Assembly: GCA_018400395.1 (NCBI GenBank)
Contig: JAGYMN010000001.1
Span: 2,354 to 66,353 of the forward strand
Source: Actinomycetota bacterium
GTDB taxonomy: Bacteria > Actinomycetota > Humimicrobiia > Humimicrobiales > Humimicrobiaceae
Reading direction: 5' to 3'
Length of the DNA stretch: 64,000 bases
Shown: positions 13,440 to 53,382 of the stretch, piece by piece
Numbering within the stretch: the stretch's first letter is position 1
Layout: each line of letters opens with the position of its first letter
Notes under the pieces: generated by a model
Database searches by the model: none
The model's input: the letters and a program-made list of their open reading frames with translations, nothing else
Told to the model about the DNA's origin: nothing
Translations under genes and position numbers: made by a program

Positions 13440-15611
13440 TTAAAGATTTTGAAGCATTTCTCTGAGGCCTGTGAATCTTTTTTCTACAACATTTTTATTA
13501 ACCGCCATTCCAATAGCTTTCTTGCTCCCTATTAAAATTGCCAGTTCCCTGGCTCTTGTCAATGCCGTATAAAGAAGATTCCTCTGGAGAAGCATGTAGT
13601 GCGATGTAAGCAGGGGAATAATTACACATCTAAACTCTGAACCCTGGGATTTATGTATAGATATTGCATATGAATGATTAATTTCATCTATTTCATAAAA
13701 ACTGTATTTTATTATCCTTCCATCAAAATTTATGTGCAATTCATTTATTTCATTATCAATTTTATGAATTATTCCTATATCACCGTTATATATTTCTTTT
13801 TCATAATTATTCTTCAGCTGGATGACCCTGTCTCCTGTCCTGAATACCCTGTTTCCATAATATAATCCACCCTCCCCGGGATTAATTGCATCCTGTATTC
13901 TTAAATTCAGGTTTATAACCCCGCATATTCCCTTATTCGTAGGTACAAGTACCTGGACATCTCTTAGAGGATCCATATGTAACCTCGAAGGTATTTTATC
14001 TGTTAAAAGATTGATAATAAGATCAACTGTTTTTTCCGGATCATTTTTTTCTATAAAGTAAAAATCCCCGGCTTCAGAATTTTTTATATAAGGGAATTCC
14101 CCATCCCTTACCCTGTGTGCATTTCTTATAATCTGGCTGCCGCCTTCCTGACGGTATATCCTTTTAAGCTCTGCAACAGGTATTACACCAGAGCGGATCA
14201 GGTCCCCAAGAACATATCCTGGACCAACTGGAGGCAGCTGGTCTATATCTCCCACAAATATGAGATTAGTATTTTCTTTAAAGGCAGACAGGAGATTTTT
14301 TGTAAGTCTTATGTCCAGCATTGAAGCTTCATCTATTATTACGGTGTCCGCTTCAATGGGATTTTTATCATTTTTCAAGAATTTATTCAGTTTAGGATTA
14401 AAATTTAGAAGCCTGTGTATAGTCTTTGATTCCCTTCCTGTTGTTTCAGTCATTCTTTTTGAGGCTCTTCCCGTAGGTGCCGCCATTAGTACTTTTTTAT
14501 TTTCACTTTCAAGAATTTTTATAATAAAATTTAGTATTGTACTTTTTCCTGTTCCCGGACTTCCAGTTATTATTATTATTTTTTCCATAAGGGCATTTAT
14601 TATGGATTCAACCTGTATGTCATCAAGTTCTATATTCTTTAATTTAGCAAGTTCCATTATTATTTTTCTGTAAGAAGATTTATCTCTTTTTGCCTTCCCA
14701 TCACTAAATTTACTATTTATAATTTCCTGTATTTTTTCCCCTACATACTTTTCAGCGATATAAAGGCCTTTCAGATAGACCCTTCTTATATCACCGTCAT
14801 CCATAATAATTATTTTTTCTTCTCTCCCAAGCTCGTCAATAGCATTATTTAATAGCGGTAGCCCCACTCCAAGGAAATCAAGAGAGCTGTCTATTATACT
14901 TTCATATGGAAGGTAGCAGTGCCCTCCATCCTCTGCTCTGCGAAGTATATATATTATTCCGGACTTTACCCTGAAAATCGAATCTCTGGGTATTCCGGCT
15001 CTGCCGGCAATATCATCTGCAATTTTAAAACCTATTCCAAATATATCCTCTGCAAGGCGGTACGGGTTTACCTTAATAACATTCTCAGCATTTTCACCAT
15101 AAGTATTATATATTTTCATAGCATATGTATTTGATATGCCGTAAGATTGCAGGGTCATCATTACATTTCTTGTATTTCTATGTTTCTGCCATGACTGCAT
15201 TATCTGTTTTATTCTTTTTTCCCCTATTCCTTCTATACATGAAAGGCTCTCGGGGTCATTGTCGAGAACATTGATTGTATTTTTTCCAAAATAATCAACT
15301 ATTCTTGAGGCCATGGCCGGCCCTATTCCTTTAATCACTCCAGAGCCGAGGTAATCCTCAATTCCCTTTTCCGTAACAGGAATACTTGCACTTACCGATG
15401 ATACCTCAAATTGTTTTCCATAGGTCCTGTTTACTGTCCATTTTCCCTTTACTTCGAGTTCTTCACCGCACTGGAGCTCAAATACATTACCAACTATAGT
15501 CACATATGTGTTATCTGTCATCCTGAGTTTACCAACCATATAACCACTTTCAGGATTTTTAAACACTATCTTTTCAAGTATCCCATTTATTGTTGATTGA
15601 CGGTTTTCCAT
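13440..15611 (-). CDS. recD2: ATP-dependent RecD-like DNA helicase (RecD2/SF1 family)
   Basis: 723 aa; N-terminal OB/HhH region, Walker A GSPGTGKST, SF1 helicase motifs, C-terminal SH3-like. Confidence 0.85.
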   Translation of the reverse strand: MENRQSTINGILEKIVFKNPESGYMVGKLRMTDNTYVTIVGNVFELQCGEELEVKGKWTVNRTYGKQFEVSSVSASIPVTEKGIEDYLGSGVIKGIGPAMASRIVDYFGKNTINVLDNDPESLSCIEGIGEKRIKQIMQSWQKHRNTRNVMMTLQSYGISNTYAMKIYNTYGENAENVIKVNPYRLAEDIFGIGFKIADDIAGRAGIPRDSIFRVKSGIIYILRRAEDGGHCYLPYESIIDSSLDFLGVGLPLLNNAIDELGREEKIIIMDDGDIRRVYLKGLYIAEKYVGEKIQEIINSKFSDGKAKRDKSSYRKIIMELAKLKNIELDDIQVESIINALMEKIIIITGSPGTGKSTILNFIIKILESENKKVLMAAPTGRASKRMTETTGRESKTIHRLLNFNPKLNKFLKNDKNPIEADTVIIDEASMLDIRLTKNLLSAFKENTNLIFVGDIDQLPPVGPGYVLGDLIRSGVIPVAELKRIYRQEGGSQIIRNAHRVRDGEFPYIKNSEAGDFYFIEKNDPEKTVDLIINLLTDKIPSRLHMDPLRDVQVLVPTNKGICGVINLNLRIQDAINPGEGGLYYGNRVFRTGDRVIQLKNNYEKEIYNGDIGIIHKIDNEINELHINFDGRIIKYSFYEIDEINHSYAISIHKSQGSEFRCVIIPLLTSHYMLLQRNLLYTALTRARELAILIGSKKAIGMAVNKNVVEKRFTGLREMLQNL

Positions 15612-23113: not shown

Positions 23114-24049
23114 TTACCCGGCTCTTGGATGAAATTTCCTGTAATCAGATTTTATCTTCTCAATATCCATATGCGAATATATTTCAGTTGTGGAAATATT
23201 TTCGTGACCCAGAAGCTCCTGTATTTCCCTGATTCCTGCCCCCTCCTGTAAAAGATGCGTGGCAAAGCTATGCCTGATGCTGTGCGGAGTAATATTCTTC
23301 TTTATCCCTGCAAGCCTTACATTCTTTTTTACTATATCCCTTATGCTCCTGGAAGTAAGACCACTTCCCCTGATATTTAAAAAAAGATGGCCGTCTCTGG
23401 AATATGATTTCCTTTTACTATTAAAGCTCAGCTCATTACGGGCATCTTTGATGTACCTGTCCAGCCAGTAAAGTGCAATCTGGTTTACATATACAATCCT
23501 CTCTTTTCTGCCTTTTCCCATGACCTTAATCTCATTATTTTTTAAATTTAAGTCCCCCAGCATCATGTTTTCTATCTCGCTTACCCTTGCACCTGTTGAA
23601 TATAAAAGTTCAAGAATGGTTCTATCCCTTATGTCCAGACTGCTTACCGTCTTCATGCTGTCGAATAATTTTACCATCTCATCCCTTGAAAGAACCGTAT
23701 AATATTTTATTCTCTTCCGGGGTACATTAATAAATTTTGAAATATTACTCTTCATTATCTTATTTTCTTCAAGGAAACGAAAATAATTTATAAAGGCAGA
23801 ATACTTTCGGATAATTGTCCTATTGGAATAATTTTTACAGTCAAGTGATTTTAAAAATTTACGGAATATTACCAGATTAATATCACCAATATTCAATACA
23901 TTGTTATCTTTCAAAAAGCTGTTAAGCTGAATGAGATCTTTTTTATAGGAACTTATGGAATTTTTTGCGAGGTTCCTTTCATACTTTAGATATTCTAAAT
24001 AAAGCTCCAGGCTGCTGTTGCGGTTCATATTATAAATAATCACTTTCAA
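23114..24049 (-). CDS. xerC: Tyrosine recombinase XerC/XerD family
   Basis: 311 aa; C-terminal catalytic R..HxxR..Y: …HSIRHSFATHLLQEGAGIREIQELLGHENISTTEIYSHMD. Confidence 0.85.
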   Translation of the reverse strand: MKVIIYNMNRNSSLELYLEYLKYERNLAKNSISSYKKDLIQLNSFLKDNNVLNIGDINLVIFRKFLKSLDCKNYSNRTIIRKYSAFINYFRFLEENKIMKSNISKFINVPRKRIKYYTVLSRDEMVKLFDSMKTVSSLDIRDRTILELLYSTGARVSEIENMMLGDLNLKNNEIKVMGKGRKERIVYVNQIALYWLDRYIKDARNELSFNSKRKSYSRDGHLFLNIRGSGLTSRSIRDIVKKNVRLAGIKKNITPHSIRHSFATHLLQEGAGIREIQELLGHENISTTEIYSHMDIEKIKSDYRKFHPRAG

Positions 24050-24525: not shown

Positions 24526-25689
24526 TTAATCACATCTTTTATAATGATTCGAAGGCCCTTCTGAAATAAGTTTTTCCATCTCCAGGAATGCAAGTGAATT
24601 TAATATCTTTTTTATCGGCATCTGGCATTTTAAACAAAGATTTTCTACGCTCTCAGGCATGTAGCCTATGTTGTCAAATAACTTTTTAGTATCCGGCTCA
24701 AGTAATTTTTCTATTTCTTCGTATCTTTTTTTATGTATAATTCTATATTTTTTATTATCATCATCTTTAAATTTTAACAGATTATCAAACTCCTCCATTA
24801 TATCTTCTATGCATTCTACAAGTTTTGCCCCACTTTTTATAAACATATGACATCCTCTGCTGGCATTGCTGAATATACTTCCGGGAACTGCAAAGACTTC
24901 CCTGTTCTGCCTTAATGCTATTTCACCTGTAATAACTGCTCCGCTTTTTCTGCCGGCTTCTACTATGATAACACCCCTGCATAATCCACTTATTATTCTA
25001 TTCCTAACAGGAAAATTTTTTCTAAGCGGGGGAGTACCGGGTGGAAATTCTGTTATTACTGCTCCGTTTTCCGTTATCTCCCTGAACAGATTCCTGTTCT
25101 CCGGAGGATAAATTATATCAGGCCCGTTCCCAAGAACAGCCGTACTTCCCCCTTTCTCCTTAACTGCTGCAGAGTGAGCAGCACTGTCAATTCCAACTGC
25201 AAGTCCGCTTACTACATTAATGCCCATTGCGGAGATATTTCTGCTTATATACCCGGCAGCCTCAAGCCCATATTTTGTACATTTTCTGCTTCCAACTACA
25301 GCAATATTAAATTCATGTCTTATCCTGTTTCCTTTATAGAAAAGTACCGGTGGTGGTAAAAAAATATTCTTAAGCTGCTCGGGGTAATCATCATCTCCAA
25401 TGCAAAAAGCTTTAAATTCTTCCTTTTCCAGACCATGCAAAATCCTTTTATACTGCCTGTCTGAATTATCCTCAGCGGCTGAACTTTCATTAAACCCTGG
25501 CTGCATGTACTGTTTTTTATGTCCGTTCTTAAGAAAGAATCTGTTTGCAGCTCCTACATCATCATTATTTTTTCTGTAAATATCAATATACTCCGAAGAG
25601 CTTATTTTTAGATAGTACATTATATATAGAAGATTTTTTAGATTTCTATCCATAGATTCTTTCAGCCCTGTAGCTTGCAGATTCAACAA
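24526..25689 (-). CDS. dprA: DNA processing protein DprA (Smf)
   Basis: 387 aa; Rossmann-like DprA core …GLAVGIDSAAHSAAV…VLGNGPD.IYP.EN; C-terminal winged-helix-like region. Confidence 0.9.
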   Translation of the reverse strand: MLNLQATGLKESMDRNLKNLLYIMYYLKISSSEYIDIYRKNNDDVGAANRFFLKNGHKKQYMQPGFNESSAAEDNSDRQYKRILHGLEKEEFKAFCIGDDDYPEQLKNIFLPPPVLFYKGNRIRHEFNIAVVGSRKCTKYGLEAAGYISRNISAMGINVVSGLAVGIDSAAHSAAVKEKGGSTAVLGNGPDIIYPPENRNLFREITENGAVITEFPPGTPPLRKNFPVRNRIISGLCRGVIIVEAGRKSGAVITGEIALRQNREVFAVPGSIFSNASRGCHMFIKSGAKLVECIEDIMEEFDNLLKFKDDDNKKYRIIHKKRYEEIEKLLEPDTKKLFDNIGYMPESVENLCLKCQMPIKKILNSLAFLEMEKLISEGPSNHYKRCD

Positions 25690-35418: not shown

Positions 35419-36291
35419 TCATGAAAACATCATATCAGCAAAACTGCCTGCATCAAAATAATATATATCTTCGAGTTTCTCTCCGTCTGTTATTATCCTG
35501 ACCGGTATTTTAAGATCATTTTTTATTGTAATAATTATTCCTCCTCTTGAAGTGCTGTCTACCTTCGTAAGTATTATTCCAGTTACATCAACCGATTCTG
35601 CAAATTTTTCTGCCTGATTCCTCGCATTCTGACCCGTTGTTGAATCTATAGTAAGAAGGACCTCGTCCGGCCCCCTGCCCAGCTTTTTTCTTACAACCAT
35701 TTTTATCTTTTTAAGCTCTTCCATAAGGTTATATGATGTCTGCATCCTTCCCGCTGTATCTATAATTACGATATCTGCCCTCCTGGCTACTGCTTTCTCC
35801 AGGCTGTCATATACAACTGCTCCAGGATCAGAATTCCTCTGATGACTTACCATGTCAATACCCAGTATTTCTGCAAAGTGTCCGAGCTGCTCTACTGCTG
35901 CAGCCCGGAATGTATCTGCTGCAGCAATTATTATCTTTTTACCCTGTTTTTTAAACATATTTGCAATCTTTGCAATCGAAGAAGTCTTGCCTGTACCATT
36001 TACCCCAACAACCATATATACTGTCGGAGGTTCATCTGAATATTTAAGCTCCCTTTTCCCACCTGTACCCAGTATGTCTGCTATCTCTTCCTTCAATAAA
36101 TTCCGCAGACCCTCCGGACCGCTGATTTTTTCCTGATATGATTTTCTTTTCATATCACTTATTATCTTCTCTGCTGTATTGATGCTCACATCTGAGGTAA
36201 TCAGCTGTTCTTCCAGGTCATCCCAGAACTTATCGTCTATTTTTTTAAACTTCTGCCATATAAAATTTATTTTCTCAAATACTTTTTTCAT
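35419..36291 (-). CDS. ftsY: SRP receptor FtsY (NG domain only, short form)
   Basis: 290 aa; GVNGTGKTS, DTAGR, TKVD motifs. Confidence 0.9.
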   Translation of the reverse strand: MKKVFEKINFIWQKFKKIDDKFWDDLEEQLITSDVSINTAEKIISDMKRKSYQEKISGPEGLRNLLKEEIADILGTGGKRELKYSDEPPTVYMVVGVNGTGKTSSIAKIANMFKKQGKKIIIAAADTFRAAAVEQLGHFAEILGIDMVSHQRNSDPGAVVYDSLEKAVARRADIVIIDTAGRMQTSYNLMEELKKIKMVVRKKLGRGPDEVLLTIDSTTGQNARNQAEKFAESVDVTGIILTKVDSTSRGGIIITIKNDLKIPVRIITDGEKLEDIYYFDAGSFADMMFS

Positions 36292-36293
36292 TT

Positions 36294-38636
36294 TTATTTA
36301 TCCATTATTCCAGCTGCATCTTTTTTATCTATTTTTTCAGATACCACCTTTGATATTCCATCGGACTGCATGGTAACCCCGTATATTTTGTCAGCTATCT
36401 CCATTGTCTTTTTCTGATGGGTTATTATTATTATCTGCTGCTTTTCAGAAAATTTCTTAACAAGGCTCAAAAACCTTGCGATATTCGCATCATCAAGAGC
36501 TGCGTCAACCTCATCAAAAACATAAAAAGGAGCAGTGTTTATAGAAAAAACAGAAAATTGAAAAGCCAGAGATACCAGTGATTTTTCTCCCCCGCTTAAA
36601 AGTGAAAGCGACACCAGTTTATTATTTCCTATATCAACCTTTAGATCCACCCCCATGTCTTCATCCTCTGACCCTCCGTTTTCATAGCTTTCGAGAATCA
36701 TTTCACCCTCTCCGTGAGGAAAGAGTATTTTAAAATACTTCTGGAAGGATTCATTTATTTTTTCAAACTTTTCAAGAAAGATACTGCTTATTTTTTCATT
36801 TATTTCCTTAATCAGTTCCTTAAGCTGATTTCCGGCTTCAACCAGGTCTTTTCTCTGTTCATCAAGGAAATCATACCTTTTCTTTATCTTAGAAAATTCA
36901 ATAGCAGCATTTGGATTGACGTTTCCAAAATTTTTCATCCTGGACTTAAGTCTTTTTACCCTTGCTTCTGATTCCTGTGTATTTCCGGAAGGTTTAAAGT
37001 TTTTTGAGGCATATTCTATTGAAACATTATAATCATCTACCATTGCTGATGTTATGGATTTTACCTTTTCCTTCACCTGCTCTTTTCTTAAATCTATTTT
37101 ATATATTTCATTCTCAAACCTGTTTACGTCTAATTTTAAATCACTGATCTTTCTATCGTATCCGTTTATTTTATCCCGGTCATTTGAGATTAATTCTTTA
37201 TGCCTTTCAAATTCAGGGTATAACCTCTCTTTTATTATTTCTGATGAGGTTCCGAAACTTTCAAGCACTGCTAACATCCTGTCAGCCCTCTCGAGATTTA
37301 CCCTGCATACCTCTTTTATATCCTGGATCTTTCTTATTTTCTTATCTATCGACATGTCCTGGACTTTCTTTTCTCTATCCGGGCTTCTTTCAGATTTTTT
37401 TGATTTTGGAAAAGAACCAGCCGCCTTTATATCCTCGATTATGCTTCCCAGCCCCTCTATAATCCTATTCCCTTCACCGATTACAGTTTCTGCATCATGT
37501 TCTACTTTTAACTGGACTCTAATACTTTCCAGAAAATCCCTCATTCTATTTTCTAATTTCTCTAATCTTTTTTTAACCTTTTCCAGAAATGATAAATCAA
37601 CATAAGCCCCATCCTGTTTGCCGGGAACAATCTTTTTTACAGTCTTATGTGGTAAAACACCATTTTCAAGCTCCATTTCAAACATACTGTAAAGTGTAGA
37701 AAATACATTTTTTTTGCTTTTTACAAGGGCTATACTGTTTGAAAGAATCCCCAGACTGCTGTCAAATGATTCAATCCTTGCCCTTAAATTTTCATATTCA
37801 GCCTGTTCAGACCCAATGTTACTGAAAAGGTCATTTTTTTCTTTTTCTATTTTTAATATCCTGTTGTCTGTTCCCCTTATGCTCTCCCTTAATTTTTTAC
37901 TCCGTCCTTCTATCTCGTCCCATAGAATGTTATACCTTTTGAGATCCGAAAGAAAAAGGGATATCTCTTCTTTTTTAAGCTCATTTGCCATATCAGCATA
38001 TTCTCTTGCCCTTTTTGATTCTATTTCAAGTGGATCCATAGTCCTTTTTATTTCTATCATCAAATCATCCAGCCTGCCGATATCGCTTTTTACCTTATCA
38101 ATTTTATCAATGGATTTCTTTCTCCTATTTTTATGTTTTGACAGTCCAATCATCTCATCTATTACAAGTTTTCTCTCAGCAGGTTTTAAAATCGCTATTT
38201 CATTTACCTGGCCCTGATTAATTATAATATGAAGGCCTTTTCCTATACCTGAATCACCTGTCATTTCCTGGATATCCATAAGCCTGCATGGGGACGAATT
38301 TATGAAATAATCACTTCCGCCCCGGCTAAAAACATGCCTTGTTATTTTCACATCCCTGAAATCTACATCGAATATTCTGTCCCTGTTGTCAAACAACAGT
38401 GAGACTTCTGCAATTCCCATTTCCTGATCCTTGCTCCTGAATATCACGTCTCCCATCGAGCTTCCCCTCAGGGATTTTGGGCTCTGTTCTCCAAGTACCC
38501 ATGAAATAGCATCTGCTACATTGCTCTTTCCGCTGCCGTTTGGCCCAACTATTACGCTTATTCCATGCTCAAAATCAAGGCTGCTTTTATTTGCAAACGA
38601 TTTAAAACCCCTGAGTGTTATATTTTTGAGGTACAA
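36294..38636 (-). CDS. smc: SMC-family chromosome segregation ATPase, unusually short (780 aa), hinge not recognisable
   Basis: N-terminal FKSFA…VVGPNGSGKSNVADAISWVLGEQS…LRG, C-terminal LSGGEKSLVSLAFQFSVF…FYVFDEVDAALD; canonical rnc-smc-ftsY synteny; ~400 aa shorter than typical bacterial SMC. Confidence 0.8.
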   Translation of the reverse strand: MYLKNITLRGFKSFANKSSLDFEHGISVIVGPNGSGKSNVADAISWVLGEQSPKSLRGSSMGDVIFRSKDQEMGIAEVSLLFDNRDRIFDVDFRDVKITRHVFSRGGSDYFINSSPCRLMDIQEMTGDSGIGKGLHIIINQGQVNEIAILKPAERKLVIDEMIGLSKHKNRRKKSIDKIDKVKSDIGRLDDLMIEIKRTMDPLEIESKRAREYADMANELKKEEISLFLSDLKRYNILWDEIEGRSKKLRESIRGTDNRILKIEKEKNDLFSNIGSEQAEYENLRARIESFDSSLGILSNSIALVKSKKNVFSTLYSMFEMELENGVLPHKTVKKIVPGKQDGAYVDLSFLEKVKKRLEKLENRMRDFLESIRVQLKVEHDAETVIGEGNRIIEGLGSIIEDIKAAGSFPKSKKSERSPDREKKVQDMSIDKKIRKIQDIKEVCRVNLERADRMLAVLESFGTSSEIIKERLYPEFERHKELISNDRDKINGYDRKISDLKLDVNRFENEIYKIDLRKEQVKEKVKSITSAMVDDYNVSIEYASKNFKPSGNTQESEARVKRLKSRMKNFGNVNPNAAIEFSKIKKRYDFLDEQRKDLVEAGNQLKELIKEINEKISSIFLEKFEKINESFQKYFKILFPHGEGEMILESYENGGSEDEDMGVDLKVDIGNNKLVSLSLLSGGEKSLVSLAFQFSVFSINTAPFYVFDEVDAALDDANIARFLSLVKKFSEKQQIIIITHQKKTMEIADKIYGVTMQSDGISKVVSEKIDKKDAAGIMDK

Positions 38637-38660
38637 TACTTATTCTCCGTATAATGGGTG

Positions 38661-39380
38661 CTATTGTAGATCTAAATTATATAATGAAATTAATGAATTT
38701 TTAGCAGCATTCTGTTCCGATTCCTTCTTGCTTGTTCCGGTACCTCTTCCCAGTATCTTCCTGTCCAGTAAAACCGCAGAATGAAATATCTTATCATGGT
38801 CAGGTCCTTCAGTCCCTGTCAACTTATATTTTACAAGCTTTGAAAAATCTGCCTGTACAGCTTCCTGAAGATATGTCTTGTAATCAGTGATATTGGGGGT
38901 ATTAATCATGTTTTCGATACGATTTTCATATATCTGTATAAGCCAGCTTTTAATAAACTTTATACCGCTGTCTATATATATAGCTCCTATCAATGCTTCC
39001 AGAGCATCTGCCAGTATTGATTCTTTTTTACGTCCCCTGGATAATTCTTCGTTTTCGCTTAACAGTATCTGCTGGTCTATCTTTGTCCTGAAGGCTATTT
39101 TTGAAAGAGTCTTCTTATTAACAAGAATAGCCCTGATTTTTGCAAGTCTTCCTTCAGAAAAATAGCTGTAATTATCAAAAAGGTAAGAAGTTATCACAAA
39201 TGAAAGTATGCTATCCCCAAGAAATTCAAGCTGTTCATTTCCTCTTGACTGTACATTTATCTGTCGGGCAAAAGACCTGTGGGTAAGAGCCTGTATATAT
39301 ATTTTAAGATCTCCGGGCTTTATTCCCAGACCTTCGAGCCAATCTCTGACTTTTTTTCTTAAAACTCCTTCATTGTCCAT
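38661..39380 (-). CDS. rnc: Ribonuclease III
   Basis: 239 aa; ERLEFLGDSIL signature, C-terminal dsRBD. Confidence 0.95.
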   Translation of the reverse strand: MDNEGVLRKKVRDWLEGLGIKPGDLKIYIQALTHRSFARQINVQSRGNEQLEFLGDSILSFVITSYLFDNYSYFSEGRLAKIRAILVNKKTLSKIAFRTKIDQQILLSENEELSRGRKKESILADALEALIGAIYIDSGIKFIKSWLIQIYENRIENMINTPNITDYKTYLQEAVQADFSKLVKYKLTGTEGPDHDKIFHSAVLLDRKILGRGTGTSKKESEQNAAKNSLISLYNLDLQ

Positions 39381-40770: not shown

Positions 40771-41835
40771 TTATTTTTTGGATAATTCAAGAATTTTTTC
40801 TGTATCTATGTATTCCCTTACCACCTCTACTATTTTATCTATCTTCTTTAATTCATGGAATCTAACGTGTCCGATTATCTCACCGACCTTCTCTACGGCT
40901 GTAAGTGTATCATAATTAACTAAGATCATCGGTACCCCCAGCTCTTCTGCCCTTCCAAGAACTACTGTTGAAGGCTGGAAATTACCTGTCAGTATAAGAC
41001 ACTTTGTATGTGTCTCCAGCGCAGCTAGCTGTACATCTGCTCTGTCACCACCGGTGATAACTGCCTTATTTGCCTTCCTCCGGAAAAATTTAAGAGCCTG
41101 TTCCTGCCCCATAGCTCCTACCATGAATGTTTCAACCAGTTCATCTGACTTTTCTTCTGCGCATATTATCTGTCCATTAAGAAAGTCTGCCATCTCCCTG
41201 ACACTCACCGATGAAAGAATTCTGTCGGAGAGGACATATCCAAAAGTCTCAACTCCCCTGTTTTCCAGATACGGTAATACAAGTTCTTCAAGGTAATTCA
41301 CCTGGCTTCTGGGTACCAAGTTTATTATAATCCCGCCAAAATAATCCCCAAGTATCTTCCTTGAGAAAAGTATTTCATCGACCATATTATTATCATATTT
41401 AAATACCATTATAGTTTTTGCATTCAGCCTTTCTGTTATTTTAACAGCAGATATTCCCATAAAACATCCATCTTCTATACTCTTTGCGCCTTCAAGCACA
41501 ACAATATCTTTATTTTTCTTAATGTTATTATAAGATTTCTCTATTTTATTAATAAATTCTTTTGAGGAGTTCTCGTCTTTTAATCCGTCCCTGCAGCACT
41601 GCTGGGTTAACACTACAGGGCATATATCTTCAAGCTTTTCTTCAAGCTTAAGAATATTGGAGATATACTGTGCATCTTCATCAGTGGTAATACCTCCAAC
41701 CCTTGTTGGAAGGGTCCCTACAGGTTTCATATACCCTACCTTTAAACCTTTTTCGGTAAATATTTTGCTGACTCCTACGCATATAGAACTTTTCCCGGAA
41801 AACGGCTGATTTGAAATAAAAAATAACGGGACCAT
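40771..41835 (-). CDS. Standalone BioD-like P-loop + DRTGG domain protein (resembles N-terminal regulatory half of phosphotransacetylase Pta; no PTA catalytic domain)
   Basis: 354 aa; N-terminus FFISNQPFSGKSSICVGVSKIFTEKGLKVGYMKP resembles Pta N-domain/CobQ-MinD P-loop; C-terminal …VITGGDRADVQLAALETHTKCLILTGN… matches DRTGG domain pattern. Confidence 0.65.
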   Translation of the reverse strand: MVPLFFISNQPFSGKSSICVGVSKIFTEKGLKVGYMKPVGTLPTRVGGITTDEDAQYISNILKLEEKLEDICPVVLTQQCCRDGLKDENSSKEFINKIEKSYNNIKKNKDIVVLEGAKSIEDGCFMGISAVKITERLNAKTIMVFKYDNNMVDEILFSRKILGDYFGGIIINLVPRSQVNYLEELVLPYLENRGVETFGYVLSDRILSSVSVREMADFLNGQIICAEEKSDELVETFMVGAMGQEQALKFFRRKANKAVITGGDRADVQLAALETHTKCLILTGNFQPSTVVLGRAEELGVPMILVNYDTLTAVEKVGEIIGHVRFHELKKIDKIVEVVREYIDTEKILELSKK

Positions 41836-41838
41836 TAT

Positions 41839-43941
41839 TTAACCTCCTATTCTTATTCTTGCATCTCCAGCAATGGAGCCTTTTCCCTTTCTCTTTACAA
41901 ATAAAGGATTAATATCCATCTCTATTATTTCAGGAAAATCTGTTACCAGTTGTGATGTCCTGAGAAGTATATCAATTATACTCTCTATATCTGACGGTTC
42001 TTCCCCCCTGGTGCCTTCTAAGAGTCTTATGGTTTTAATCTCCGATACCATCTCTTTTGCCATCTTTCTGTTTATCGGAACTATTCTGAAAGCCACATCC
42101 TTTAAGACTTCTACATATATCCCGCCAAGCCCAAACATTATAACATGTCCAAACTGGGGATCCTCGCTTATTCCTATTATTGTCTCCTTCTTATCCCTTA
42201 CCATCTCCTGTACAAGTACGCCCGAAATGTTTGCCTCCGGCATATATCTTTTTACATTTATCATTATCTGATCGAAGCTTTCTTCAAGCTCTTTTTCATC
42301 GTTTACACCTATTTTTATACCACCGACATCTGTTTTATGCAAAATATTTGGCGATACTATCTTGAGCACCACGGGATATCCGATCCTTTCCGCCTCTTCT
42401 TTTGCTTCTGCAATATCTTCTGCCACTTCAGCCCTGGGAACAGGGATTCTATAGGCTTCCAGTATTTTCCTTGCTTCCAGTTCACAAAGTTCCAGTCTTC
42501 CCGCGTCTATACATCTGCCAAATACTTTCTTTACTTTTTCTTCGTCAACATCAAATTCAACAACCGGCTGAAATTTTTCCAGTTTCCATTCATAATAATC
42601 CATCATTACGCTTAAAGTCTCTATTGCATCTTCGGGAATTTCAAAATTAGGTATTTTCTTCTTTGTAAGATAGTCTATTCCTTTCCTGACTTCATTGATT
42701 CCCATGAAACTTGTCATTACAGGTACTTTATTCCCGTTTTTCTCTACTACTTCAGCAATCGCTTTTGCAGTTTCAAGATCTTCTGTCATTGCCTGCGGTG
42801 TTAAAAGGACCAGTACAGCATCAACATTTTTATCTGCCATTACTGTCTCAAGCGCTTTTTTATATCTTTCTGAAAGCGCATCTCCCAGCACATCTACCGG
42901 GTTATAAATATTTGCAGCAGCCGGTAGAAATCCTTTTAATCTATCGATTGTCTCTACAGTAAAGCCTGCAAGCCTGATGCCTCTGTTTTCACACTCGTCA
43001 GTGGCCATAATGCCAGGCCCACCGGCATTTGTTATTACTGCTATATTTCTGCCCCTGGGAAGCGGCTGATATGAAAATGCTATGCTGTAATTAAAAAGTT
43101 CTTTTATATCTTTAGCCCTTATGATCCCTGTCTGCTTAAAAGCTGCATCATATGCCTTATTTGATCCTGCAAGTGTCCCCGTATGAGAAGAAACTGCCCT
43201 GGCTCCTGCGTCTGTGTTCCCGGATTTTATTATTATTACTGGTTTTTCTTTGGAAACTCTTGATGCAGCCCTTATAAAGTCCTTTCCAGCGGTGATACCT
43301 TCTATATATGCAGTTATTACATCCGTATTCTCATCATCGATCCATGCTTCAAAAAGATCATTTTCGGATATATCTGACTTATTACCAAGGGATACTACCT
43401 TTGAAAAGCCTATTTTTGATGCTCCTGCCCAGTCCAGTACTGATGTTAGAAGTGCACCAGATTGTGATATGAAACTAATCCTGCCCCTAAAAGGCATATT
43501 TGAAGAAAAAGTTGCATTTACCGGACAACCGGTATCCATCATTCCAAGGCAATTGGGCCCAAGTATCCTGATATTGCAGTATTTAGCCTTCTCTATAATC
43601 CCTTTTTCTCTCCTGGCTCCTTCTACTCCTGTTTCCTTGAATCCTGATGAGATAATTATTATAAATTCCACACCTTTTTCCGCACACTCTTCAAGGGCTT
43701 CCGGGATATATTCTGCCGGTATGACTATAACTGCAAGCTGTATGTTTTGGTCAATATCAAGTATTGAAGAATAGCACCTGTGGCCTCCAATATCACCTGC
43801 TTTTGGATTAACGGGGAATACCCTGCCTCTGTAGCCTGAATCTATAATGTTATCGAAAATTGTACGTCCCACTTTACCTTTATATCTGGCAGCACCTATT
43901 ACAGCTATAGAATCAGGACAAAAAAACTTCTTAAAACTCAA
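41839..43941 (-). CDS. acd: Acetate--CoA ligase (ADP-forming), fused alpha/beta (NDP-forming acyl-CoA synthetase superfamily)
   Basis: 700 aa; N-terminal CoA-binding Rossmann (IAVIGAARYKGKVG), succinyl-CoA-synthetase-like ligase-CoA domain with His loop (…SSHTGTLAGS…), C-terminal ATP-grasp; TTG start 7 nt after GGAGGG. Confidence 0.8.
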   Translation of the reverse strand: MSFKKFFCPDSIAVIGAARYKGKVGRTIFDNIIDSGYRGRVFPVNPKAGDIGGHRCYSSILDIDQNIQLAVIVIPAEYIPEALEECAEKGVEFIIIISSGFKETGVEGARREKGIIEKAKYCNIRILGPNCLGMMDTGCPVNATFSSNMPFRGRISFISQSGALLTSVLDWAGASKIGFSKVVSLGNKSDISENDLFEAWIDDENTDVITAYIEGITAGKDFIRAASRVSKEKPVIIIKSGNTDAGARAVSSHTGTLAGSNKAYDAAFKQTGIIRAKDIKELFNYSIAFSYQPLPRGRNIAVITNAGGPGIMATDECENRGIRLAGFTVETIDRLKGFLPAAANIYNPVDVLGDALSERYKKALETVMADKNVDAVLVLLTPQAMTEDLETAKAIAEVVEKNGNKVPVMTSFMGINEVRKGIDYLTKKKIPNFEIPEDAIETLSVMMDYYEWKLEKFQPVVEFDVDEEKVKKVFGRCIDAGRLELCELEARKILEAYRIPVPRAEVAEDIAEAKEEAERIGYPVVLKIVSPNILHKTDVGGIKIGVNDEKELEESFDQIMINVKRYMPEANISGVLVQEMVRDKKETIIGISEDPQFGHVIMFGLGGIYVEVLKDVAFRIVPINRKMAKEMVSEIKTIRLLEGTRGEEPSDIESIIDILLRTSQLVTDFPEIIEMDINPLFVKRKGKGSIAGDARIRIGG

Positions 43942-51126: not shown

Positions 51127-53382
51127 CTATAGTATCCAGGCCGGATCTACATCTATTATAATCTTTGTGTCACTGCTTTTTCTGTACTTTTTCATTAACT
51201 GTCCCAGCATCTCAGTAAGAACACCTATTTCCTTTGTCTTAAGCAGTATATGCTGACGGTAGAATCTGTTTATCCTGTAAAAAGGTGCTGGAGCAGGCCC
51301 CAGAACATCAATATTTATTTTAATGTCTTTTTTTATTTTATCCAGCATTTTTTTAGACTCTTCTATTACAATGGCCTCATCAAGCCCTGATATTATTATA
51401 TTTACAAGATTAGAAAACGGAGGATAGGAAAGCTCTTTCCTGTTTTTAATCTCTTCCATATAGAAACTCAGGTAATCTTCATCATCAAGGTGCTTAATAA
51501 CATAGGAATCAGGCCTGTATGTCTGAATTATTACCCTTCCCGGCTTTTCTTTTCTTCCAGCCCTTCCTGAAACCTGGGTTACAAGCTGGTATACCCTCTC
51601 ATTCATATGATAATCAGGAAGAGACAACATACCATCACAGTTTATCACCCCAACAAGAGTGACATCAGGAATATCAAGCCCTTTTGCCACCATCTGCGTA
51701 CCCACTAAAATCGATCTTCCGGGAGCGGAAAAATTTTTAATTATCCTGTAGTGCGACTGCTTCCCGGAGGTTGCATCGGAATCCATCCTGAAAACAGGTA
51801 CATCGTTAAACCTTGTCCTTATCTTGGCTTCCACTCTCTGTATGCCGCTTCCTGCAAGAAATAGGCTGTGCTTTCCGCACATTCTGCAGACTCCTGTATA
51901 TTTTTCTTCCCTTCCGCAGTGGTGGCATACAAGTTTCCCGATGTCGCGGTGATAGTTGTACGGCAGGTCACAGGCGGGGCAGCGTGGTATGTTACCGCAT
52001 TCTGTGCATACTACAAAATTAGAAAATCCCCTTCGGTTTATAAAGATTATTACCTTGTTGTCTTTTTCAAGCTCTTCATGCATTGCCCTGTAAAGAGCTG
52101 ATGTTATGAACTCGTCTTCTTTTGACCGGTCTATCTTCCTTAGGTCAACTATCTTCCTTTCGACTTTCTTCGAGTTCTGGGCTTTTACAGGCATCTCCAG
52201 AATTGAATAATCCTTTCTGTTCAAAGCCGTATATCTGGTGCTTATTGAAGGAGTGGCACTTCCCATAACCAGAGGGATCTTTTTTATCTCTGAAAGCTTT
52301 GATGCAACATCACGTGTATTATATCTTGCCAGTGAATTTTCCTTATAGGAAGGGTCGTGCTCTTCATCCATTATTATAACACCGGTATCCTTCATTGGTG
52401 TAAAGAGAGCTGACCTTGTTCCTATCAGAAGGTCCACATTACCCTCAAGTATTTCCATCCACCTGTCATATCTCTCGCCGTCACTCATGCGTGAATGATA
52501 TACTGCAAGCCTCCTCCCGAACATCTTCTCAAATCTTGAAAAAAGCTGGGGGGTAAGTGATATCTCGGGTACAAGAACAAGGCCTTTCCTGCCCATATCT
52601 ATAACCCTTTTGCATATGTTCATGTAAACCTCTGTCTTGCCGCTTCCGGTTACCCCATGTATAAGAAATTTCCTGCTTTCCCCACGGGCGGCAGAGCCCC
52701 ACACAGCTTCCACGCATTTCTTCTGATAATGGTTTAGAATTACCGGCCTGCTTTCTTCCTGTAAAATGCTGCCGTAACGGTAATCCCTTATTTGCCTTTT
52801 GCTGTACTTTTTTACTAGACCCGCCTCCAGAAGCCTCTTTAAAGAATCATAGCTGCTTTTCGTTCTTTTAAGCAGCAGGCTCCGTTCCATTTCCTTATTT
52901 TTGTCCTGAAGAAGTAGCTGAAGAATCCTGTTCTGTGCTTTTTTCCTCTGCCATCCCCTGTCATCTTTTAATTTTCCATAAACTCCATTATCAAGACGGA
53001 TCACGGTCATATATTTTGACGGTGAGGCTGAACCATAAATAGTCTTTTTACTTTTTCTACCAGGGGGAAGCAACAATCTCAGAACACCGGAAAGGGGATA
53101 TACATAATATGAGCTCATCCATAATGCAAGTTTTAACATATCATCATCAAAAACAGGCGAAATATCTGCCAGTCCGGATATTTTTTTCAGATCCTGAGGT
53201 TTTACCGGTGTCTCGTCTTTTATACCCACAACATATCCTATTTCTTTTCTCTGGTTTACAGGTATCAGCACAACACTGCCTGTTTTTATATAAGGCTCAA
53301 TATCCGGGGGTATAATATAATCAAAGGGGTGGTCCATACCCGGTGATTTTATATCAATATATACTTCAGCATATCTTTTCAT
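51127..53382 (-). CDS. priA: Primosomal protein N' (replication restart helicase PriA)
   Basis: 751 aa; GVTGSGKT Walker A, DEEH, Cys-rich zinc-binding insert (CTECGNIPRCPACD…CHHCG). Confidence 0.95.
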   Translation of the reverse strand: MKRYAEVYIDIKSPGMDHPFDYIIPPDIEPYIKTGSVVLIPVNQRKEIGYVVGIKDETPVKPQDLKKISGLADISPVFDDDMLKLALWMSSYYVYPLSGVLRLLLPPGRKSKKTIYGSASPSKYMTVIRLDNGVYGKLKDDRGWQRKKAQNRILQLLLQDKNKEMERSLLLKRTKSSYDSLKRLLEAGLVKKYSKRQIRDYRYGSILQEESRPVILNHYQKKCVEAVWGSAARGESRKFLIHGVTGSGKTEVYMNICKRVIDMGRKGLVLVPEISLTPQLFSRFEKMFGRRLAVYHSRMSDGERYDRWMEILEGNVDLLIGTRSALFTPMKDTGVIIMDEEHDPSYKENSLARYNTRDVASKLSEIKKIPLVMGSATPSISTRYTALNRKDYSILEMPVKAQNSKKVERKIVDLRKIDRSKEDEFITSALYRAMHEELEKDNKVIIFINRRGFSNFVVCTECGNIPRCPACDLPYNYHRDIGKLVCHHCGREEKYTGVCRMCGKHSLFLAGSGIQRVEAKIRTRFNDVPVFRMDSDATSGKQSHYRIIKNFSAPGRSILVGTQMVAKGLDIPDVTLVGVINCDGMLSLPDYHMNERVYQLVTQVSGRAGRKEKPGRVIIQTYRPDSYVIKHLDDEDYLSFYMEEIKNRKELSYPPFSNLVNIIISGLDEAIVIEESKKMLDKIKKDIKINIDVLGPAPAPFYRINRFYRQHILLKTKEIGVLTEMLGQLMKKYRKSSDTKIIIDVDPAWIL

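What the first reader, a model, noticed from the sequence alone, without database searches (positions are those of the whole stretch)
36294..38636. SMC only 780 aa long with no recognisable hinge domain
Head N- and C-terminal halves are unmistakably SMC and the gene sits in the canonical rnc-smc-ftsY slot, yet it is ~400 aa shorter than bacterial SMC (~1150-1200 aa). By eye the central region has no glycine-rich hinge motifs, only charged coiled-coil sequence. A hinge-less or mini-hinge SMC would dimerise differently (MukB/RecN-like?) and would be an unusual condensin architecture. The ORF is uninterrupted, so this is not a frameshift artefact.
Basis: partly seen in the sequence, partly recalled or inferred. 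Interest (0 to 1): 0.5.

Follow-up and report, generated by a model that had tools for sequence, protein, structure and literature searches.

The report
Naturally hinge-less short bacterial SMC
This is a genuine chromosome-condensin (Smc) gene of an uncultured anaerobic actinobacterial class whose dimerising "hinge" and outer arms are replaced by a short all-helical tip; it is a real and conserved oddity, but hinge-less actinobacterial SMCs were already reported in 2025.

Summary
ORF 36294-38636 (-) encodes a 780-aa protein with intact SMC ATPase head halves, sitting between rnc and ftsY. No hinge is detectable by Pfam, by profile-profile comparison (with positive controls) or by AlphaFold2, which predicts no beta structure in the middle.

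Homology to canonical Smc covers only aa 1-~305 and ~471-780. About 560 aa of distal arms plus hinge are replaced by a ~165-aa helical module.

The form is lineage-wide. More than 200 sequence clusters and about 30 species-level genomes of class Ca. Humimicrobiia carry it (739-816 aa), always in the same gene neighbourhood. The head-proximal arm segments are invariant in length (142 and 133 aa), and all indels fall in two apex loops.

Related classes keep a normal ~1140-1180-aa Smc with a hinge. Other lineages show independent, precise hinge excisions, several with a mid-point Cys pair.

A 2025 paper already described "hinge-less SMCs" in marine Actinobacteria, so this is a new member of a known but barely studied kind.

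The mechanism is inferred, not shown: a short-armed (~24 nm) Smc-ScpAB-type condensin that dimerises through its helical tip and/or arm-arm contacts. ScpAB presence and dimerisation could not be tested.

The parts
36294..38636 (-). smc ORF, 780 aa plus TAA stop, TTG start
38645..38648 (-). Shine-Dalgarno-like GGAG, 8 nt upstream of the TTG start
   Evidence: read directly from the sequence
38142..38636 (-). N-terminal half of the ABC ATPase head (aa 1-165). Walker A GPNGSGKS is aa 31-38 (38523-38546); arginine finger R57; Q-loop Q141.
   Evidence: Alignment to the B. subtilis Smc head; motifs invariant in the family; coordinates
37662..38141 (-). N-terminal arm helix (aa 166-325). aa 166-306 is collinear with canonical Smc and is always 142 aa in 210 family members (measured as aa 165-306).
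   Evidence: AF2 helix 166-325; hhalign collinearity Q1-302 = T1-320; length invariance
37680..37718 (-). Conserved arm-tip motif SKKNVFSTLYSMF (aa 307-319). S307, K308 and F312 are 91% conserved (weighted), T314 87%, M318 83%.
37596..37661 (-). Apex loop 1 (aa 326-347): low pLDDT, 19-66 aa across the family
37512..37595 (-). Apex helix alpha-A (aa 348-375): heptad-patterned, net positive in 87% of members
37419..37502 (-). Apex helix alpha-B (aa 379-406): net negative in 97% of members; probably forms a hairpin with alpha-A
   Evidence: weak covariation support
37359..37418 (-). Apex loop 2 (aa 407-426): K/R-rich, low pLDDT. Family length range 7-41 aa and K+R fraction measured on the wider segment aa 407/408-432.
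36837..37358 (-). C-terminal arm (aa 427-600). aa 472-604 is collinear with canonical Smc and always 133 aa. It contains the joint-like breaks at 537-539, 547-552 and 570-576. aa 433-471 is net basic in 99% of members.
37305..37307 (-). C444: the best-conserved residue of the distal C-arm (199 of 210 sequences) and the only Cys near the apex
37209..37223 (-). LYPEF motif (aa 472-476) at the point where homology to canonical Smc resumes. Strict in the window's subclade, degenerate in the wider family.
36297..36836 (-). C-terminal half of the ATPase head (aa 601-780). Signature LSGGEK is aa 680-685 (36582-36599); Walker B FYVFDE is aa 704-709 (36510-36527); D-loop aa 711-715; H-loop H740.
38661..39380 (-). 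rnc (RNase III): upstream neighbour, conserved synteny
35419..36291 (-). ftsY: downstream neighbour, conserved synteny

Best explanation
This is the orthologous Smc (condensin ATPase) of class Candidatus Humimicrobiia (Actinomycetota). An ancestral full-length Smc lost its hinge domain and the distal half of both coiled-coil strands.

Shown here:
- The ATPase head is complete, with every catalytic motif invariant.
- The head-proximal neck, joint and arm are homologous to canonical Smc and fixed in length.
- The remaining ~165 aa form an all-helical apex: a conserved arm tip (S307-F319 and C444), two ~28-aa helices and two loops of variable length.
- The gene sits in the canonical slot throughout the class.

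Inferred, not shown:
- The two long helices (166-325 and 427-~600) pair over ~160 residues, giving an arm of ~24 nm, about half the normal length.
- Helices alpha-A and alpha-B form an extra hairpin tethered by flexible loops.
- The protein still works as a Smc-ScpAB-type DNA-loop-extruding and chromosome-segregating complex. Its two subunits would be held together at the far end by the helical tip (hairpins packing with each other or onto the partner's conserved arm tip), assisted by lateral arm-arm contacts.
- Heads would be bridged by a kleisin and engaged by ATP as in other Smc proteins.
For: Identity as Smc: TIGR02168 scores above its cutoff. The B. subtilis Smc head matches at E 3e-103. 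The best Foldseek hits are prokaryotic Smc head, coiled-coil and joint structures.

Hinge absent.

Homology boundaries: Q1-302 = T1-320 and Q471-775 = T879-1178 of a 1179-aa Smc.

Strong purifying constraint: Walker A and B, R-finger, Q-loop, signature and H-loop are invariant across 58 diverse members. Proximal arm segments have zero indels in 210 sequences. Neck conservation is 0.77-0.91, against ~0.5 in mid-arm.

Ortholog, not a detected paralog: identical synteny acs-DRTGG-plsX-(acpP)-rnc-smc-ftsY-ffh in all ~30 species-level genomes.

Geometry: the N-arm helix of 160 aa matches the helical length of the C-arm, leaving the 28+28-aa helices over. Alpha-A and alpha-B carry opposite net charge and show the highest block covariation, peaking at the hairpin register (weak).

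Plausibility from experiments: the B. subtilis Smc hinge can be swapped for the unrelated Rad50 zinc hook and remains functional, and shortened arms of certain lengths work (PMC5344682). Arm-arm contacts contribute to dimerising hinge-less Smc (PMC5526789). Natural arm-length modes include a minor one at 163 aa.
Against:
- The AF2 output gives no coordinates, so packing of the apex helices is inferred from lengths only.
- pTM is only 0.46.
- Apex helices are weakly conserved (~0.5) and both loops are hypervariable, which is unusual for a constitutive interface.
- Covariation was too weak (Neff ~35, z<2.2) to fix any register.
- ScpA, ScpB and ParB were not found in the window and could not be searched for in the rest of the genome.
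- A second, canonical smc elsewhere in these genomes cannot be excluded.
Confidence: 0.55

Rival explanations
1. There is no tip dimerisation at all. The helical apex is just a cap, and the two subunits are joined only by lateral arm-arm contacts, the kleisin bridge and ATP-driven head engagement. This would give an open-ended clamp rather than a closed tripartite ring.
For: Apex helices and loops are poorly conserved and variable in length. Arm-arm contacts are reported to contribute to dimerising hinge-less B. subtilis Smc (PMC5526789). Other hinge-less lineages replace the hinge with only ~52 aa.
Against: The arm tip (S307-F319, C444) is the best-conserved part of the distal half, which suggests a specific contact there. 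Five other hinge-less lineages have evolved a mid-point Cys pair, which suggests that a tip linkage is under selection. Engineered Smc needed a dimerisation domain (hinge or zinc hook) in the functional constructs.
Confidence: 0.25
2. A RecN-like or Rad50-like end-to-end dimer that tethers or repairs DNA rather than extruding loops. On this view the gene has changed function.
For: The overall layout (head, ~160-aa antiparallel coiled coil, no hinge) resembles RecN or Rad50. RecN and Rad50 models give weak hits. The 2025 paper raised a Rad50- or MukBEF-like shift for its marine clade.
Against: TIGR00634 (recN) scores 71.6 bits against a cutoff of 407.85, and Rad50 models score at most 76 bits against cutoffs of 700-1087. 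There is no CxxC hook. The heads, neck and joint are Smc-type and strongly conserved. The gene keeps the housekeeping smc locus in every genome.
Confidence: 0.08
3. The hinge function is supplied in trans, either by a separate hinge-containing protein or by a second canonical SMC, MksB or MukB encoded elsewhere in the genome. The short protein would then be a specialised paralog-like partner.
Against: There is no extra ORF between rnc, smc and ftsY. Each Humimicrobiia assembly returned a single locus in the genome scan (a weak test). The short gene occupies the ortholog's position. The marine hinge-less clade was not found together with a regular SMC in single-cell genomes (PMC12153180).
Confidence: 0.1
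4. Artefact or decaying gene: mis-assembly, internal deletion in one MAG, or a pseudogene.
For: The source is metagenome-assembled.
Against: More than 200 non-identical clusters from NCBI, JGI, ENA and Logan share the architecture. All catalytic motifs are invariant. Proximal arm lengths are invariant.
Confidence: 0.02

Closest known systems
Bacterial Smc of the Smc-ScpAB condensin (B. subtilis Smc, TIGR02168)
   Same: ATPase head halves (45% identity to the B. subtilis N-terminal head half in 5h67_A) and all catalytic motifs. Neck, joint and proximal ~140 aa of each arm are collinear. Same rnc-smc-ftsY locus.
   Different: No hinge (PF06470). About 560 aa of a 1179-aa Smc are replaced by ~165 aa. 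Arm length is ~160 aa instead of ~340 aa. The all-helical apex has two hypervariable loops.
'Hinge-less SMC' clade of uncultured marine Actinobacteria (Environ Microbiome 2025, PMC12153180)
   Same: Actinobacterial, SMC-type head, antiparallel coiled coil ending without a hinge, no CxxC. That clade was not seen together with a regular SMC, and here no second smc was detected either (not excluded).
   Different: That clade comes from surface-ocean catalogues and was annotated as class Actinomycetes. This one belongs to Ca. Humimicrobiia, and the record titles of the related genomes (oil-associated name, hot-spring isolate, fen, deep lake cast) point to non-marine habitats. My data show that hinge loss arose several times, so independent origin is likely.
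Engineered Mini-Smc and Smc(zinc-hook) chimeras of B. subtilis (Burmann et al. 2017, PMC5344682)
   Same: Shortened arms and replacement of the hinge by an unrelated dimerisation element, with head, neck and joint retained. The natural arm length falls near the reported minor mode of 163 aa.
   Different: Natural rather than engineered. The apex is a helical module and not a zinc hook. The arm is shorter than the functional Mini-Smc constructs discussed in that paper.
RecN / Rad50-SbcC
   Same: SMC-superfamily head plus a shorter antiparallel coiled coil without an SMC hinge.
   Different: Family HMMs score far below their cutoffs. No zinc hook. Head, neck and joint are Smc-type. The gene is in a housekeeping locus.

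Membership tests
Bacterial Smc (TIGR02168 / Smc-ScpAB) | N- and C-terminal ABC ATPase halves with Walker A, Q-loop, signature motif, Walker B, D-loop and H-loop | tested here: met
   The motifs are invariant in 58 diverse members.
Bacterial Smc (TIGR02168 / Smc-ScpAB) | Whole-protein score above the curated equivalog cutoff | tested here: met
   610.6 bits against a cutoff of 567.35. The match is in two stretches, and the first covers aa 2-408 = profile positions 1-417.
Bacterial Smc (TIGR02168 / Smc-ScpAB) | Central hinge dimerisation domain (PF06470) | tested here: not met
   No Pfam hit at E<=10. hhalign probability 0.15%, with controls at 98-99.9%. AF2 predicts no beta structure in the middle.
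Bacterial Smc (TIGR02168 / Smc-ScpAB) | Long coiled-coil arms of ~340 aa (~47-50 nm) | tested here: not met
   The arm helices are ~160 aa. Only the proximal 142 and 133 aa are collinear with canonical arms.
Bacterial Smc (TIGR02168 / Smc-ScpAB) | Conserved rnc-smc-ftsY gene neighbourhood | tested here: met
Bacterial Smc (TIGR02168 / Smc-ScpAB) | Kleisin ScpA and kite ScpB partners encoded in the genome | not testable with these tools
   Not in the 64-kb window among the ~45 ORFs scanned or read.
Hinge-less actinobacterial SMC (PMC12153180) | SMC-type head with an antiparallel coiled coil, no hinge and no CxxC, in Actinobacteria | tested here: met
Hinge-less actinobacterial SMC (PMC12153180) | Membership of the same monophyletic marine clade | not testable with these tools
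   The paper's sequences are not held. Habitat and class annotation differ.
RecN | TIGR00634 / PRK10869 score above cutoff | tested here: not met
   71.6 bits against 407.85; 56.5 bits against 418.
Rad50 / SbcC | CxxC zinc hook at the coiled-coil apex, and family HMM above cutoff | tested here: not met
   No CxxC; the only cysteines are C117 and C444. Rad50 models score at most 76.5 bits against cutoffs of 700-1087.
Defence-system SMC-like ATPases (Wadjet JetC, Lamassu LmuB, MADS mad3) | Strong full-length match and a defence-island context | tested here: not met
   Only head-level matches: mad3 215 bits over the head halves, LmuB 77 bits, JetC 45 bits. The neighbours are housekeeping genes.

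The most novel reading that the evidence does not exclude
The 780-aa protein is the only condensin of Humimicrobiia. It performs chromosome loading and loop extrusion with ~24-nm arms and no hinge, using a previously undescribed helical-hairpin tip. The tip may be domain-swapped onto the partner's conserved S307-F319/C444 arm tip, and it would act as the constitutive dimerisation element. Together with the independent hinge excisions seen in other lineages, some of which carry a mid-point Cys pair that looks like a metal hook, this would show that the SMC hinge fold is evolutionarily dispensable and repeatedly replaced in nature.
Probability: 0.3. Interest if true: 0.65.

Novelty: new member of a known kind. 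Interest (0 to 1): 0.45.

Why it matters
The role of the hinge in DNA entry, DNA binding and dimerisation, and the reason for the strict ~50-nm arm length, are long-running questions in SMC mechanism. A natural, strongly conserved Smc that lacks the hinge and has half-length arms would be a compact subject (780 aa) for cryo-EM and single-molecule work. It is also a natural counterpart to the engineered Mini-Smc and zinc-hook chimeras. The repeated independent hinge losses seen here suggest the hinge fold is less essential in bacteria than textbooks imply. The significance is tempered because hinge-less actinobacterial SMCs were already reported in 2025, and because nothing about function has been tested experimentally.

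Tried and rejected
1. Pfam scan of the middle 226 aa alone. Only a sub-threshold LXG hit (20.9 bits against a cutoff of 26.5) and a lipoprotein hit, both judged to be coiled-coil noise.
2. APC-corrected mutual information on 210 family sequences, to find which helices pair. The controls recovered plausible registers (i+j ~774 near the head, ~760 mid-arm) only at z~2. The distal-module signals (z<2.2) were mutually inconsistent, so the result is inconclusive.
3. Linker-fused pseudo-dimer of aa 290-492 for AlphaFold2.
4. Foldseek against the AlphaFold database. The library was unavailable.
5. Foldseek against the PDB. It only confirms the Smc head, arm and joint, with nothing specific for the apex.
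6. The look-up of encoding contigs for the window protein and for P0001. Neither is on record.
7. ScpA, ScpB and ParB in the window. None found.
8. Zinc-hook idea for this protein. Rejected because there is no CxxC and only a single apex Cys.
9. Divergent-hinge idea. Rejected by hhalign with positive controls.
10. Defence-system SMC idea. Rejected on scores and genomic context.
Full report
**Observation**

ORF 36294-38636 on the minus strand is an uninterrupted 780-codon frame with a TTG start. A GGAG lies 8 nt upstream of the start. rnc ends 24 nt upstream and ftsY begins 2 nt downstream. The maximal ORF begins exactly at SMC position 1 (MYLKNITLRGFKSF).

Pfam SMC_N spans aa 2-762. The bacterial Smc equivalog TIGR02168 scores 610.6 bits, above its 567.35 cutoff, while RecN, Rad50, SbcC and archaeal SMC-related models fall far below theirs. 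The best solved-structure matches are the B. subtilis Smc head constructs 5xg3 and 3zgx (E ~3e-103). Both aligned stretches cover the head halves and adjoining coiled coil: aa 1-215 and aa 563-771. Walker A (aa 31-38), R57, Q141, signature LSGGEK (aa 680-685), Walker B/E709, the D-loop and H740 are all present. They are invariant across 58 diverse relatives.

**Is there a hinge?**

No. PF06470 is not reported even at E<=10, either for the whole protein or for the central 226 aa alone. A profile of the family's middle region (aa 300-480 or 320-470), compared by hhalign with a hinge profile built from 45 full-length SMCs, gives a probability of 0.15%. The same hinge profile detects the hinge at 98-99.9% probability in every hinge-bearing control, including short SMCs of 822-987 aa.

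Two AlphaFold2 runs were made. The first used 27 sequences (mean pLDDT 63). The second used 58 sequences at 43-86% identity (mean pLDDT 75.9). Both predict no beta strand between aa 166 and 638. The predicted helices are 166-325, 348-375, 379-406, 427-536, 540-546, 553-569 and 577-638. The two intervening loops, 325-345 and 408-428, have pLDDT below 50. Foldseek of the better model finds prokaryotic Smc head, coiled-coil and joint structures first: 5xei, 5xns and 3zgx.

**Anatomy of the middle**

Profile-profile alignment of the family to full-length Smc is confidently collinear only for aa 1-~302 (= 1-320 of a 1179-aa Smc) and aa 471-775 (= 879-1178). About 560 residues of distal N-arm, hinge and distal C-arm are therefore replaced by ~165 residues.

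In 210 family members, segment 165-306 is always 142 aa and segment 472-604 is always 133 aa. All length variation is confined to two loops: 325-348 (19-66 aa) and 408-432 (7-41 aa).

Conservation peaks locally at the arm tip. In the motif S307-K-K-N-V-F-S-T-L-x-x-M-F319, weighted conservation is 91% for S307, K308 and F312, 87% for T314 and 83% for M318. C444 is present in 199 of 210 sequences. LYPEF (aa 472-476) is strict only in the window's subclade.

The N-arm helix (160 aa) equals the helical length of the C-arm (aa 427 to ~600, less ~16 loop residues). The simplest reading is a ~160-residue antiparallel coiled coil. At ~0.15 nm per residue (established coiled-coil geometry) this is ~24 nm, against the ~47 nm quoted for Smc arms. 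Helices alpha-A and alpha-B (28 aa each) would then be an extra hairpin tethered by two ~20-aa flexible loops. This packing is an inference.

Weak support comes from two observations. Alpha-A is net positive in 87% of members and alpha-B net negative in 97%. The alpha-A by alpha-B block has the highest mean covariation, peaking at the hairpin register. The distal C-arm (aa 433-471) is net basic in 99% of sequences.

**Distribution**

The first homolog search returned 120 clusters, all 771-788 aa, at 57-100% identity. None has a precomputed hinge domain, and some are named Ca. Hydromicrobium. A profile of divergent members added 89 more clusters of 751-816 aa.

A scan of species-representative genomes found the form in ~30 assemblies at 40-86% identity and 739-816 aa. 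These include Ca. Humimicrobium oleiphilum UBA1414, Ca. Humimicrobiaceae, Ca. Humimicrobiales and Ca. Calidifonticultor daggyaiensis. That covers two families of class Ca. Humimicrobiia. The record titles name a hot-spring isolate, a fen, a deep lake cast and an oil-associated species.

All of these loci show the same gene order: acs-DRTGG-plsX-(acpP)-rnc-smc-ftsY-ffh-rpsP-rimM. In the exhaustive 50%-identity library, the family is a single cluster set apart from everything else: 1071 bits for its own representative, against at most 437 bits for the next protein.

**Relatives with and without hinges**

The nearest outgroup proteins are ordinary Smc of ~1140-1200 aa with hinges. Two of them come from other classes of the phylum: Ca. 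Aquicultor secundus (class Aquicultoria) and Ca. Anoxymicrobiaceae (class Geothermincolia).

Eleven other short representatives (838-1003 aa) also lack a hinge. Their heads are 49-78% identical to their nearest hinge-bearing SMC, and at least 67% in seven of the eleven. They are only 45-49% identical to the Humimicrobiia family, and they scatter among full-length SMCs in a head-domain tree.

Two cases show clean excisions. P0139 (858 aa) aligns to the 1141-aa Anoxymicrobiaceae-type Smc P0129 with residues 437-766 replaced by ~52 aa. P0207 (1003 aa) aligns to P0156 with residues 478-687 replaced by ~53 aa. Hinge loss is therefore recurrent and independent. The Humimicrobiia event is the deepest and the most remodelled.

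**Literature**

A 2025 paper (PMC12153180; preprint 2024) reported a monophyletic, abundant clade of "hinge-less" SMC in uncultured marine Actinobacteria. The proteins have SMC-type heads, an antiparallel coiled coil and no CxxC, and they did not co-occur with a regular SMC. No mechanism was proposed. No other paper in the searchable library describes natural hinge-less bacterial Smc.

Burmann et al. 2017 showed three relevant things. B. subtilis Smc tolerates replacement of the hinge by the Rad50 zinc hook. Only certain arm lengths function. Natural arm lengths are multimodal, with modes at 238, 341 and 515 aa and minor modes at 163 and 423 aa. Their survey was seeded with hinge alignments, so it could not have seen hinge-less proteins. 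Diebold-Durand et al. 2017 note that arm-arm contacts contribute to dimerisation of hinge-less Smc.

**Mechanism**

Shown: an intact ATPase head; conserved neck and joint; proximal arms of fixed length; no hinge; a helical apex; orthologous genomic position.

Inferred: a short-armed Smc-ScpAB-type condensin whose distal closure is provided by the helical tip and/or arm-arm contacts.

The rivals are (a) no tip closure at all, (b) a RecN/Rad50-like functional shift, and (c) a hinge supplied in trans or a second SMC. The first cannot be excluded. The others are disfavoured by HMM scores, synteny and conservation. An artefact is excluded.

**Limits**

Three limits apply. The structure tool returns no coordinates and accepts no multimers, so the dimer interface is untested. 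Covariation power was too low to fix any register.

**Verdict**

This is a real, conserved, class-wide hinge-less Smc with half-length arms. It is interesting for SMC mechanism, but it is a new member of a kind already flagged in 2025. Interest 0.45.

Noticed in passing
Related proteins P0207, P0124, P0125, P0155 and P0180 (not in the window): Five of eleven other hinge-less SMC representatives carry a Cys pair exactly at the protein mid-point, where the hinge was: CVLTSGGC, CAAIADGC, CLLKGIKC, CDYNC and CPVESC. Where other cluster members were held (P0207, P0124, P0125), the pair is identical in them. Overall Cys frequency is only 0.54%. This looks like a hook-like metal or disulfide apex, analogous to the Rad50 zinc hook but with C-x3-6-C spacing.
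   Followed up: partly
Related proteins P0139 vs P0129 and P0207 vs P0156: Precise, independent hinge excisions. About 330 aa and about 210 aa, each centred on the hinge, are replaced by ~52-53 aa. Flanking arms remain 55-61% identical to a hinge-bearing relative, one of which is from Ca. Anoxymicrobiaceae (class Geothermincolia).
   Followed up: partly
window 38634-38636, and loci L001-L033: The smc start codon is TTG in the window. The first codon translates as Leu (a non-ATG start) in nearly all related genomes, so a weak start codon appears to be conserved for this gene.
   Followed up: no
window 37242-37358 (aa 427-465, extending to aa 471): The distal C-arm segment aa 433-471 is net basic in 99% of 210 family members (median +5), and apex loop 2 is about 31% Lys/Arg. 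This could be a replacement DNA-binding surface near the tip.
   Followed up: no
window 40771-43941: An ADP-forming acetyl-CoA synthetase-like protein (700 aa: CoA-binding, Succ_CoA_lig and ATP-grasp_5 domains) and a DRTGG/AAA_26 protein (354 aa) lie immediately upstream of plsX-rnc-smc. This linkage is conserved in most Humimicrobiia loci.
   Followed up: partly
window 13440-15611, 23114-24049, 24526-25689, 51127-53382: Other DNA-transaction genes are in the window: a RecD2-type helicase, a XerC/D-like tyrosine recombinase, DprA and PriA. No ScpA, ScpB, ParA/B, RecN or FtsK was detected.
   Followed up: yes
whole window: Every ORF assigned a function here lies on the minus strand, and GC skew is negative in every 2-kb bin (-0.15 to -0.34). 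This is consistent with one replichore in which genes are co-oriented with replication.
   Followed up: no
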